A stretch of DNA of 48,563 bases, from the IMG/VR virus record IMGVR_UViG_3300005996_000002, positions 1 through 48,563 of that record. One strand, 5' to 3'. Positions within the stretch are counted from its first letter, which is position 1. Each line of letters opens with the position of its first letter. Origin of the DNA: a virus. A program made the position numbers and the translations under genes. Shown here piece by piece: positions 48,123-48,275 of the stretch. The notes under the pieces are model-generated. The model ran no database searches. It saw only the letters and a program-made list of their open reading frames with translations, and was not told the origin of the DNA.

Positions 48123-48275
48123 ATAAAACTGCATGGCGGGAACAGGCGCGCCCGGATATTATGCGCTCTACCAACTGAGCTACATCCGGCTTGCGCCGAA
48201 CGACTGGACTCGAACCAGCGACCTCATCCTTAGCATGGAAGTAACCGACCGCTACACCACGCCATGCAGTTTCAA
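48123..48275 (-). ncRNA. Y-RNA-like / tRNA-mimicking structured RNA (YrlA-type candidate)
   Basis: A 13-bp perfect closing helix (48260-48272 with 48126-48138) extends to 15 bp. Inside it are a T-arm GCUGG-UUCGAGU-CCAGU (48203-48219), a canonical D-arm UAGCUCAGUUGGUAGAGC (48165-48182) closed by CCGGAU/AUCCGG, and a second D-like arm plus an anticodon-like arm. It lies immediately 5' of the Ro60 gene on the same strand. Confidence 0.7.

What the first reader, a model, noticed from the sequence alone, without database searches (positions are those of the whole stretch)
48123..48275. Composite RNA: long closing helix enclosing one near-complete cloverleaf and a separate acceptor/D-arm half-tRNA
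The following reads the minus strand.
- **Closing helix:** 5'-AAACUGCAUGGCG (complement of 48260-48272) pairs perfectly with CGCCAUGCAGUUU-3' (complement of 48126-48138). That is 13 bp, or 15 bp with a G-U and a U-A extension.
- **Module 1 (between the arms):**
  - D-like arm GUAG-CGGUCGG-UUAC.
  - Anticodon-like arm CUUCC-AUGCUAA-GGAUG (48225-48241). The loop has U33/A37-like geometry and the triplet GCU.
  - Variable segment AGGUC.
  - Textbook T-arm GCUGG-UUCGAGU-CCAGU (48203-48219).
  - There is no local 3' acceptor strand. The acceptor is supplied by the distal closing helix.
- **Module 2 (inserted where the acceptor 3' strand would be):**
  - Stem GGCGC..GCCGGAU / AUCCGG..GCGCC (48152-48157 with 48184-48189, plus flanking GGCGC/GCGCC).
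  - That stem encloses a canonical tRNA D-arm UAGCUCAGUUGGUAGAGC (48165-48182).
- **Extra hairpin:** AAACCAU/AUGGUUU (48274-48280 with 48302-48308) lies just 5' of the closing helix and competes with its base.

This is neither a functional tRNA nor a decayed one, because the pieces are held in one fold by a perfect helix. Two tRNA-like modules in a single Y-like RNA is not the arrangement I know from YrlA.
Basis: seen in the sequence. Interest (0 to 1): 0.75.

Follow-up and report, generated by a model that had tools for sequence, protein, structure and literature searches.

The report
Phage Y RNA (YrlA) beside Ro60
This is a tRNA-mimicking "Y RNA" of the known YrlA class, sitting just upstream of a phage gene for the Ro60 RNA-binding ring protein. 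It contains one rearranged tRNA-like domain on a Ro60-binding stem, not a new two-module RNA.

Summary
The interpretation does not hold.

- **Context:** the RNA (about 48124-48274, minus strand) lies 29 nt upstream of a Ro60/TROVE-vWA gene (46794-48095, minus strand) in a temperate tailed-phage genome.
- **Class:** it has the published YrlA Y-RNA anatomy. That is a terminal helix, a Ro60-motif internal loop, a YUAY linker, a "V" hairpin, a T arm, a closed acceptor-like hairpin and a D arm.
- **Supported by covariation:** across more than 100 related Ro60 loci, the closing helix, a second stem helix (P3), the closed acceptor hairpin and a short anticodon-stem helix all covary.
- **Not supported:** The "D-like arm" (GUAG/UUAC) shows no covariation; its loop is really the 5' strand of P3.
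- **One domain, not two:** the two "modules" are halves of a single circularly permuted tRNA-like domain.
- **Extra hairpin:** it belongs to a second, stem-only Y RNA at 48276-48346.
- **Modestly new points:**
  - Rfam's YrlA model misses this clade (31 bits against a threshold of 69).
  - The V hairpin carries a conserved anticodon-loop signature.
  - tRNA finders often mis-call the 5' part of such units as tRNA genes.

Verdict: a new member of a known kind, of low to moderate interest.

The parts
48124..48274 (-). Whole YrlA-type Y RNA, from the outermost pair of the closing helix. The true transcript ends are unknown.
   Evidence: Covariance model R1 scores 48131-48267 at 126 bits. Rfam YrlA gives a partial hit at 48158-48227: 31.3 bits, E 9.6e-5.
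48260..48274 (-). P1 closing helix, 5' strand (UGAAACUGCAUGGCG)
   Evidence: Read from the sequence. The 8 pairs nearest the core all show changes on both sides among homologues.
48124..48138 (-). P1 closing helix, 3' strand (CGCCAUGCAGUUUUA)
48252..48259 (-). 5' Ro60-motif strand UGGUGUAG, a variant of the published GNCGAAN0-1G motif. Its GG pairs with the CC at 48139-48140.
   Evidence: The family consensus is U-GG-Y-G-(A/U/C)-AG in about 125 of the 150 best hits. The second G-C pair covaries to C-G. Identification as the motif rests on Chen 2014.
48139..48148 (-). 3' side of the conserved internal loop, CGCCUGUUCC
   Evidence: The family consensus is CG-N-Y-UGUUCC. RNAalifold pairs only the GG/CC and the G-C next to P3.
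48245..48252 (-). P3 helix, 5' strand (G-CGGUCGG).
   Evidence: Cells are 95.9% paired and 7 of 7 pairs have changes on both sides. RNAalifold predicts it independently.
48148..48155 (-). P3 helix, 3' strand (CCGGGCG-C). The window has one G-G mismatch.
48239..48244 (-). Linker UUACUU, containing the conserved YUAY of YrlA
   Evidence: UUACUUC occurs in 87 of the 150 best hits. YUAY is described in Chen 2014 and Wang 2018.
48228..48238 (-). V hairpin, an anticodon-loop mimic: CC-AUGCUAA-GG
   Evidence: The inner pairs covary. Among the 77 units with a closed 7-nt loop here, U33 is present in 72, R37 in 74 and Y32 in 68.
48225..48227 (-). 3' strand (AUG) of the short anticodon-stem helix. It pairs with CAU at 48161-48163 and continues directly from the V hairpin.
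   Evidence: The middle pair occurs as AU 9, GC 7, UA 3 and CG 1 in A1, and as CG 34, UA 17, GC 8 and AU 4 in 77 units. This is also the closing helix of the Rfam YrlA model.
48161..48164 (-). G26 equivalent plus CAU, the 5' strand of the anticodon-stem helix after the D arm
48220..48224 (-). Variable loop AGGUC. Its last C could form the Levitt pair with G15 of the D loop.
   Evidence: The sequence is conserved. The tRNA tertiary-pair logic comes from Chen 2014 and is inferred here.
48203..48219 (-). T arm GCUGG-UUCGAGU-CCAGU
   Evidence: Cells are 100% paired and 3 of 5 pairs covary.
48183..48202 (-). Closed acceptor-like hairpin (AS): CGUUCGGC-GCAA-GCCGGAUG
   Evidence: Cells are 95% paired and 7 of 7 pairs have changes on both sides. 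RNAalifold predicts it. It forms first when the 5' portion is folded alone.
48165..48182 (-). U8-A9 equivalents plus the D arm: UA-GCUC-AGUUGGUA-GAGC
   Evidence: Nearly invariant in the family.
48276..48346 (-). Second, stem-only Y RNA (YrlB-like). It has P1, a GGUGAAG/UUGUUCC loop, P3 and a terminal loop, and no tRNA-like domain.
   Evidence: R1 scores it at 34.7 bits, E 8.4e-10. It is conserved, with covariation, in 7 relatives.
46794..48095 (-). Ro60 orthologue (TROVE plus vWA, 433 aa), the presumed protein partner
   Evidence: Pfam finds TROVE and VWA. PHROG 850 matches at 3e-50. The solved Thermus phage Ro60 (PDB 9KOP/9L5Y) matches at E 2e-27.

Best explanation
The locus encodes a phage YrlA-type Y RNA.

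**Stem.** The 5' and 3' ends pair into a long stem made of three parts:
- P1, the 15-bp closing helix.
- A conserved asymmetric internal loop, UGGUGUAG opposite CGCCUGUUCC.
- P3, CGGUCGG/CCGGGCG.

By analogy with characterised Y RNAs, this stem is the binding site for the Ro60 ring encoded immediately downstream.

**tRNA-like domain.** The top of the stem carries one circularly permuted tRNA-like domain, in this order:
- a composite anticodon arm: the V hairpin CC-AUGCUAA-GG stacked on the helix AUG/CAU;
- the variable loop AGGUC;
- the T arm;
- an acceptor stem closed by a GCAA loop;
- U8-A9 and the D arm.

**Likely function.** This domain is the effector module. It would fold into a tRNA-like L shape and tether Ro60 to a tRNA-binding or RNA-processing partner, such as an exoribonuclease like PNPase or an RNA repair enzyme. 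The phage would use it to remodel or protect structured RNAs during infection or induction.

**Expression.** The RNA is probably released, together with the upstream stem-only Y RNA, from the leader of the Ro60 transcript.

**Shown here:** the anatomy, its conservation and covariation, and the linkage to Ro60.
**Inferred from the literature:** Ro60 binding, the L-shaped fold, the partner and the processing.
For: - **Linkage to Ro60:** a Ro60 gene lies 29 nt downstream on the same strand.
- **Rfam:** YrlA is the best Rfam hit on the T-AS-D core.
- **Published anatomy:** the YrlA description matches part for part (PMC4201824; bioRxiv 10.1101/312249).
- **Spread of the family:** model R1 finds 272 such units in 99 related Ro60 loci. 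Of the top 149, 148 are on the Ro60 strand and 144 lie upstream.
- **Covariation:**
  - The proposed structure is 92% paired in a MAFFT alignment, with 31 of 43 pairs changed on both sides. Its covariation score is 0.654, against at most 0.117 when partners are slid.
  - In 146 distinct sequences aligned to the model it is 89% paired, with a score of 0.656 against at most 0.081.
- **Independent prediction:** RNAalifold returns the same helices.
- **Prior report of an orthologue:** the orthologous unit in Caulobacter phage CcrColossus (L003, 123 bits) belongs to a phage whose Y RNAs PMC12135203 says Chen 2014 already reported.
Against: - The Rfam YrlA model reaches only 31.3 bits (threshold 69) and covers only positions 23-88 of 114.
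- None of 20 related loci reaches the Rfam threshold either.
- The 5' motif is GGUGUAG, not the published GNCGAAN0-1G.
A competing conformation in this particular phage cannot be excluded.
- There are no expression, Ro60-binding or processing data for this RNA.
Confidence: 0.88

Rival explanations
1. One reading: a composite RNA with two separate tRNA-like modules inside one closing helix. Module 1 is a cloverleaf lacking its acceptor 3' strand. Module 2 is an acceptor/D-arm half-tRNA closed by CCGGAU/AUCCGG and GGCGC/GCGCC. On this view the architecture is distinct from YrlA.
For: - The module-2 stem exists in the window sequence.
- It dominates the thermodynamic ensemble of the isolated sequence, with pair probability about 0.84 and an MFE of -65.8 kcal/mol.
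- The 5' part scores weakly as a tRNA in the window (18.5 bits). In relatives it is called a tRNA by ARAGORN or reaches the Rfam tRNA threshold.
Against: - Among 21 homologues the module-2 helices pair in only 39.7%, 47.0% and 27.3% of cells, at about the level of slid controls. Any changes on both sides are isolated.
- The same nucleotides form the AS hairpin and P3, at 95-96% pairing with 7 of 7 covarying pairs each.
- RNAalifold does not predict module 2.
- GUAG/UUAC never covaries.
- The AS hairpin forms first as the RNA is made 5' to 3'.
Confidence: 0.04
2. The region is a decayed tandem pair of phage tRNA genes, or a tRNA-derived attachment-site remnant at the prophage end, with no function of its own.
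For: - The window is a temperate phage with an integrase at the opposite end.
- The sequence is plainly tRNA-derived.
- True tRNA arrays lie next to Y-RNA arrays in some relatives (L049, L051, L022).
- Chen 2014 warn that tRNA dimers can mimic YrlA in searches.
Against: - ARAGORN finds no tRNA here.
- The acceptor strands pair with each other as a closed hairpin, and that hairpin covaries across phyla.
- P1 and P3 have no counterpart in a tRNA dimer, yet both covary.
- The unit is tied to Ro60 genes in lytic phages, prophages and bacterial chromosomes alike.
Confidence: 0.02
3. The RNA is a permuted pre-tRNA. [quoted passage not shown] On this view it is not simply a Ro60 tether.
For: - The acceptor stem has the 7 bp that RNase P needs, plus one more pair.
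- M. smegmatis YrlA, which has a 7-bp stem, is cleaved by RNase P and receives CCA in vivo (PMC4201824).
- Wang 2018 raise the possibility of permuted-tRNA-like processing.
- An anticodon-loop signature is conserved.
Against: - Nothing in the window suggests a splicing or ligation pathway.
- The P1-P3 stem would remain attached to the anticodon stem and is hard to reconcile with decoding.
- The 'anticodon' varies freely between close relatives.
- Cleavage and CCA addition would be compatible with the best explanation rather than replace it.
Confidence: 0.06

Closest known systems
YrlA (Y RNA-like A; Rfam RF02553), as defined by Chen et al. 2014 (PMC4201824) and solved for Salmonella by Wang et al. 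2018 (PDB 6CU1)
   Same: - It lies next to and on the same strand as a Ro60 gene.
- The 5' and 3' ends form the stem that carries the Ro60 motif.
- It has the conserved YUAY.
- The order is V stem-loop, T arm, closed acceptor-like hairpin, D arm.
- A short helix joins the strand before the variable loop to the strand after the D arm.
- The tRNA tertiary-pair nucleotides are present.
   Different: - It scores well below the Rfam gathering threshold (31 against 69 bits).
- The 5' motif is GG(U/C)G(U/A/C)AG rather than GNCGAAN0-1G.
- Salmonella YrlA has no hairpin at the V position and is said to lack an anticodon loop. Here the V hairpin has a 7-nt loop with Y32-U33 and R37 and continues the anticodon-stem helix.
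- The acceptor stem has 8 bp (6 in Salmonella).
Y RNAs of Caulobacter phage CcrColossus and the Xanthomonas/Xylella siphophages (Usme, 10KY502B and others)
   Same: - The Ro60 proteins are orthologous (57-62% identity).
- The orthologous Y RNA lies directly upstream of the gene and scores 123-132 bits with the same model.
- The helices are the same.
   Different: - Those phages carry 3-5 tandem Y units; the window shows two before it ends.
- Their 'anticodons' are GUU or UGU rather than GCU.
- Some of those units are annotated in GenBank as tRNA-Thr or tRNA-Ser.
YrlB / Yrn2-type stem-only Y RNAs (Salmonella, M. smegmatis, D. radiodurans)
   Same: The window's second unit (48276-48346) is a long hairpin with the Ro60 motif and a small loop. 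It is encoded beside the YrlA-type RNA and upstream of Ro60, as in M. smegmatis.
   Different: There is no sequence similarity to the named YrlB RNAs. The assignment rests on architecture only.
Circularly permuted tRNA genes (Cyanidioschyzon, some archaea) and tRNA dimers
   Same: The T arm precedes the D arm. The acceptor is closed by a loop. The ends emerge from the anticodon-stem region. The 5' and 3' flanks still resemble tRNA parts.
   Different: There is no evidence of processing to a mature tRNA. The long Ro60-binding stem is conserved and covaries, so it is not a discarded leader or trailer.

Membership tests
YrlA Y RNA (Chen et al. 2014) | Encoded within 4 kb of a Ro60/TROVE gene, on the same strand | tested here: met
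   The RNA ends 29 nt upstream of the ORF at 46794-48095 (minus strand). Pfam finds TROVE and vWA, PHROG 850 matches, and the solved phage Ro60 matches.
YrlA Y RNA (Chen et al. 2014) | Long stem formed by the 5' and 3' ends | tested here: met
   P1 has 15 bp in the window. P1 and P3 covary in homologues.
YrlA Y RNA (Chen et al. 2014) | GNCGAAN0-1G motif near the 5' end (the proposed Ro60 contact) | tested here: inconclusive
   The window has GGUGUAG and the family has GG(U/C)G(A/U/C)AG. Position and length match, but the motif is not a literal match.
YrlA Y RNA (Chen et al. 2014) | Conserved YUAY preceding a V stem-loop upstream of the T arm | tested here: met
   UUAC lies at 48241-48244 and is followed by a hairpin at 48228-48238. 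UUACUUC occurs in 87 of 150 units.
YrlA Y RNA (Chen et al. 2014) | T arm, then a closed acceptor-like stem-loop, then a D arm with tRNA-like conserved nucleotides | tested here: met
   The Rfam YrlA alignment covers these elements. The T, AS and D helices are 95-100% paired and AS covaries fully.
YrlA Y RNA (Chen et al. 2014) | Score at or above the Rfam RF02553 gathering threshold (operational, not biological) | tested here: not met
   The score is 31.3 bits against 69. None of 20 related loci passes either. The model covers only the tRNA-like core of this clade.
YrlA Y RNA (Chen et al. 2014) | Bound by Ro60 in vivo, and carrying tRNA-type modifications (pseudouridine 55, dihydrouridine) | not testable with these tools
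   This needs immunoprecipitation and modification mapping.
Canonical tRNA gene | 5' and 3' ends pair as a 7-bp acceptor stem with a free 3' end, in the order D arm, anticodon arm, T arm | tested here: not met
   ARAGORN finds no tRNA here. The Rfam tRNA model gives 18.5 bits against 29 and has no acceptor. The acceptor strands form a closed hairpin between the T and D arms.

The most novel reading that the evidence does not exclude
In this large clade of phage and bacterial YrlA RNAs, the so-called V hairpin is not a variable arm. It is a maintained anticodon stem-loop mimic: a 7-nt loop with Y32, U33 and R37, on a 5-bp stem.

The 5' strand of that stem is split between the segment after the D arm (positions 27-28/29) and the incoming 5' segment. 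The RNA is therefore a complete permuted tRNA, with the Ro60-binding stem emerging from the anticodon stem.

Tandem units carry different 'anticodons' and D-arm types. They could act as decoys or sensors for enzymes that attack or modify anticodon loops, such as host anticodon nucleases used in phage defence. That would bring Ro60 and its nuclease or ligase partners to that conflict.
Probability: 0.12. Interest if true: 0.7.

Novelty: new member of a known kind. Interest (0 to 1): 0.3.

Why it matters
Mainly as a correction. A striking "two-module tRNA chimera" turns out to be a textbook-class Y RNA next to its Ro60 gene.

Three side results have practical value:
- Rfam's YrlA model does not detect this widespread phage, alphaproteobacterial and acidobacterial clade at its threshold. 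These RNAs therefore go unannotated.
- tRNA finders and GenBank records call the 5' part of such units a tRNA gene, which inflates phage tRNA counts.
- The clade keeps recognisable remnants of a whole first tRNA, including an anticodon-loop signature. This fits the published tRNA-dimer origin model and gives a concrete structural hypothesis to test.

Tried and rejected
- **Rfam at gathering threshold.** It found nothing in the window. Only the E-value mode showed the partial YrlA hit.
- **ARAGORN on the window.** It found no tRNA at the locus.
- **Single-sequence MFE folding.** I rejected it as the biological fold because it is not conserved, and because RNAalifold and covariation give the AS hairpin and P3 instead.
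- **Full pairing of GGUGUAG with CUGUUCC (my P2).** Only the two G-C pairs, and the G-C pair next to P3, are supported. The middle positions are invariant non-Watson-Crick combinations. I therefore describe this region as an internal loop.
- **V hairpin as a self-contained 5-bp stem using the invariant UUC.** It is compatible in most sequences but shows no change on both sides. It fails exactly where the strand after the D arm covaries. I kept it only as a possible alternative register.
- **Promoter scan upstream.** No sigma-70-like site was found, so the transcription start is unknown.
- **Literature access.** Supplementary tables of Chen 2014 and the 2020 Annual Review were not available. 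I could not check whether this exact clade, beyond CcrColossus, is in their lists.
- My first energy script mis-indexed the anticodon-stem and D-like pairs. One search has the corrected values.

Full report

I read 47900-48563 on the minus strand.
- The 13-bp perfect helix is AAACUGCAUGGCG (48272->48260) with CGCCAUGCAGUUU (48138->48126). It extends by a G-U and a U-A pair.
- The arm CUUCC-AUGCUAA-GGAUG runs 48241->48225 and contains one U-U mismatch.
- The variable segment AGGUC is present.
- The T arm runs 48219->48203.
- UA plus the D arm runs 48182->48165.
- The complementary CCGGAU/AUCCGG and GGCGC/GCGCC segments are present.
- So is AAACCAU/AUGGUUU.

The region folds better than shuffled sequence, with a z-score of -2.69. 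ARAGORN finds no tRNA here. Rfam at gathering thresholds reports nothing in the window.

**2. Context**

The minus-strand ORF at 46794-48095 starts 29 nt after the closing helix. It encodes a 433-aa TROVE plus vWA protein:
- Pfam finds both domains.
- PHROG 850 'RNA-binding protein' matches at 3e-50.
- The best solved relative is the Ro60 of Thermus phage phiLo, PDB 9KOP/9L5Y, at E 2e-27.

The rest of the window encodes an integrase, a methyltransferase, a helicase, the large terminase, a portal protein, a head protein, a tape measure protein and an endolysin. The window is therefore a temperate tailed phage or prophage, with the Ro60 module at one end.

In E-value mode, the best Rfam match in the region is YrlA (RF02553). 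It covers 48158-48227 at 31.3 bits and E 9.6e-5, on model positions 23-88 of 114. That span is the variable loop, T arm, closed acceptor hairpin, D arm and the short helix that encloses them.

**3. What the literature says YrlA is**

Chen et al. 2014 (PMC4201824) give these points:
- YrlA RNAs are encoded within 4 kb of Ro60 and on the same strand.
- They have a 5' GNCGAAN0-1G motif (the proposed Ro60 contact) and a conserved YUAY that begins a 'V' stem-loop.
- A T arm follows, then a closed acceptor-like stem-loop (AS), then a D arm.
- The 5' and 3' ends form the stem.
- They reported 355 such RNAs in 254 bacteria and 22 phages.

Wang et al. 2018 (bioRxiv 10.1101/312249) add these points:
- They solved the Salmonella tRNA-like domain.
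- That RNA lacks an anticodon loop.
- They discuss a model in which YrlA arose from a tRNA dimer: the T arm from the first tRNA, the D arm from the second.

PMC12135203 states that the Y RNAs of Caulobacter phage CcrColossus were among those already reported by Chen 2014.

**4. Homologues**

The Ro60 protein finds relatives from three sources:
- Xanthomonas/Xylella siphophages, Caulobacter and Brevundimonas jumbo phages and others.
- 42 IMG/VR viral contigs.
- 66 bacterial genomes or MAGs, mostly Alphaproteobacteria and Acidobacteriota.

In these loci the DNA upstream of Ro60 holds one to several tandem units built on the same plan. I made a MAFFT alignment of 21 units (A1) and built a covariance model from it (R1).
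- R1 scores the window locus at 126 bits.
- R1 finds 272 units at E <= 1e-3 in 99 loci.
- Of the top 149 non-window hits, 148 are on the Ro60 strand and 144 lie upstream of the gene.
- The CcrColossus orthologue (L003:257-394) scores 123 bits.

**5. Which pairings are real?**

I tested the YrlA-type structure (P1, the GG/CC-flanked loop, P3, inner V stem, anticodon-stem helix, T, AS and D) on the structure-blind alignment A1:
- 92.1% of cells pair, and 31 of 43 pairs have changes on both sides.
- The covariation score is 0.654, against at most 0.117 when partners are slid.
- P3 (window CGGUCGG/CCGGGCG) is 95.9% paired, with 7 of 7 pairs covarying.
- The AS hairpin (window CGUUCGGC-GCAA-GCCGGAUG) is 95.1% paired, with 7 of 7 pairs covarying.

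On 146 distinct model-aligned sequences the figures are 89.4% and 0.656, against at most 0.081. RNAalifold on A1, with no input from me, returns the same helices and adds an invariant G-C pair that extends P3.

- The CCGGAU/AUCCGG helix pairs in 39.7% of cells.
- GGCGC/GCGCC pairs in 47.0% and 27.3%.
- These values are at the level of slid controls.
- GUAG/UUAC is built from near-invariant bases, has no compensatory change, and is broken in 5 of 21 sequences at one pair.

So the loop of the 'D-like arm' is the 5' strand of P3. GCCGGAUG pairs with CGUUCGGC, not with AUCCGG.

The two 'modules' are therefore halves of one permuted tRNA-like domain.

**6. A caveat for this particular sequence**

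| Structure | Energy (kcal/mol) |
|---|---|
| MFE (contains the module-2 stem) | -65.8 |
| Conserved fold | -59.9 |

Pair probabilities are about 0.84 for module 2 against 0.13 for AS and P3.

Energy models ignore the tRNA-type tertiary contacts and Ro60 binding. The AS hairpin also forms first when the 5' portion is folded alone. A competing conformer in this phage still cannot be ruled out without probing.

**7. The anticodon-like arm**

The inner pairs of the V hairpin covary.

The three nucleotides that follow it (AUG in the window) pair with the three nucleotides after G26 on the far side of the D arm (CAU). The middle pair of this helix occurs as:
- AU 9, GC 7, UA 3, CG 1 in A1;
- CG 34, UA 17, GC 8, AU 4 among 77 units.

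The alternative partner, an invariant U of UUACUUC, fails exactly where position 42 is C or U.

The 3' strand of the stem is continuous. The 5' strand is split between the segment after the D arm and the incoming 5' segment. In the window this gives five Watson-Crick pairs: C-G, A-U and U-A from the far side, then C-G and C-G locally. They close the 7-nt loop AUGCUAA.

Of 140 distinct units with a tRNA-like core, 77 have a closed 7-nt loop at this position:
- U33 is present in 72.
- A purine at position 37 is present in 74.
- A pyrimidine at position 32 is present in 68.
- The middle triplet is variable.

This is the signature of an anticodon loop. Whether the two helices stack into a true anticodon-arm mimic is inference. 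I did not find it stated in the papers I could read, where the hairpin is called 'V'.

**8. The 'extra hairpin'**

Positions 48276-48346 (minus strand) hold a second Y RNA without a tRNA-like domain. It consists of P1 (GCCAAUCG/CGAAUGGU), a GGUGAAG/UUGUUCC loop, P3 and a terminal loop. R1 scores it at 34.7 bits, E 8.4e-10. It is conserved with covariation in seven close relatives.

That pairing is not in the consensus. The two-RNA arrangement upstream of Ro60 matches M. smegmatis, where YrlA and YrlB are processed from one precursor.

**9. How it most likely works**

Shown here:
- The anatomy.
- Its conservation and covariation.
- Its tight linkage to Ro60.

Inferred from characterised Y RNAs:
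- The tRNA-like domain folds into an L shape and recruits a partner. PNPase is the partner in Deinococcus, in Salmonella and, in vitro, for the Thermus phage system. RNA repair enzymes have also been proposed.
- The RNAs are cut out of the Ro60 leader transcript.

No promoter-like site was found by the simple scan.

**10. Comparison and novelty**

This is a member of the YrlA class, and its orthologue in CcrColossus has been reported. It differs from the Rfam model and from the Salmonella structure in four ways:
- It scores far below the gathering threshold, as do all 20 relatives tested.
- Its motif is GG(U/C)G(A/U/C)AG.
- Its acceptor stem has 8 bp.
- It has the anticodon-loop-like V hairpin.

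The 5' part of such units is called a tRNA by ARAGORN in at least 13 of 45 loci. It reaches the Rfam tRNA threshold in 4 of 20. GenBank annotates two of them as tRNA-Thr and tRNA-Ser.

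Noticed in passing
window 48276-48346 (minus strand): A second, stem-only Y RNA (YrlB-like) lies directly upstream of the YrlA-type RNA. It has a GGUGAAG/UUGUUCC loop and is conserved in seven close relatives.
   Followed up: yes
window 48407-48438: A GC-rich, near-perfect hairpin (GAGCGCCGCGACCCGG / CCGGGGCCACGGCGCUC) lies upstream of the Y RNAs. It could be a terminator of a gene beyond the window end or a processing signal. The tail is not U-rich.
   Followed up: no
window 22222-22297 (plus strand): ARAGORN calls a tRNA-Met (CAU) here, but the Rfam gathering-threshold scan of the whole window returned no tRNA hit. 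The discrepancy is unexplained.
   Followed up: no
L001 631-698 (OQ622092.1 20624-20691); L004 572-646 (ON529857.1 158412-158486): GenBank annotates 'tRNA-Thr' in Xanthomonas phage 10KY502B and 'tRNA-Ser' in Brevundimonas phage Kikimora. Both features are the 5' parts of Y-RNA units upstream of Ro60. ARAGORN makes the same call in at least 13 of 45 related loci.
   Followed up: partly
L003 1-720; L002 140-760; many others: Relatives carry tandem arrays of 3-5 Y units upstream of Ro60. Units within one array have different D-arm types (for example UCGUCUAGUGGCUUAGGAC, UGGCGGAGUGGCCAAACGC) and different 'anticodons', as if they mimic different tRNA species.
   Followed up: partly
L029 624-696 (IMG/VR UViG_3300034684_000299): A 73-nt sequence matches only the two ends of the Rfam tmRNA model (65.4 bits). 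It is a tmRNA-like acceptor and T-arm domain ending in CUCCACCA, with about 10 nt in place of the roughly 310-nt mRNA-like region. It lies upstream of the Y-RNA array.
   Followed up: no
L049 71-1082; L051 119-602; L022 831-1069: Arrays of 3-7 genuine tRNA genes lie immediately upstream of the Y-RNA units and the Ro60 gene, on the same strand. This suggests co-transcription and shared processing.
   Followed up: no
window 48252-48263 vs 48181-48190; 48139-48148 vs 48210-48221: The 5' Ro60-motif region (GCGUGGUG-UAGC) resembles the acceptor 3' strand plus the start of the D arm (GCCGGAUG-UAGC). The 3' motif (CGCCUGUUCC) resembles the 5' half of the T arm (CGCUGGUUCG). This fits a tandem-tRNA origin of the whole RNA. 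It was seen by eye only.
   Followed up: no
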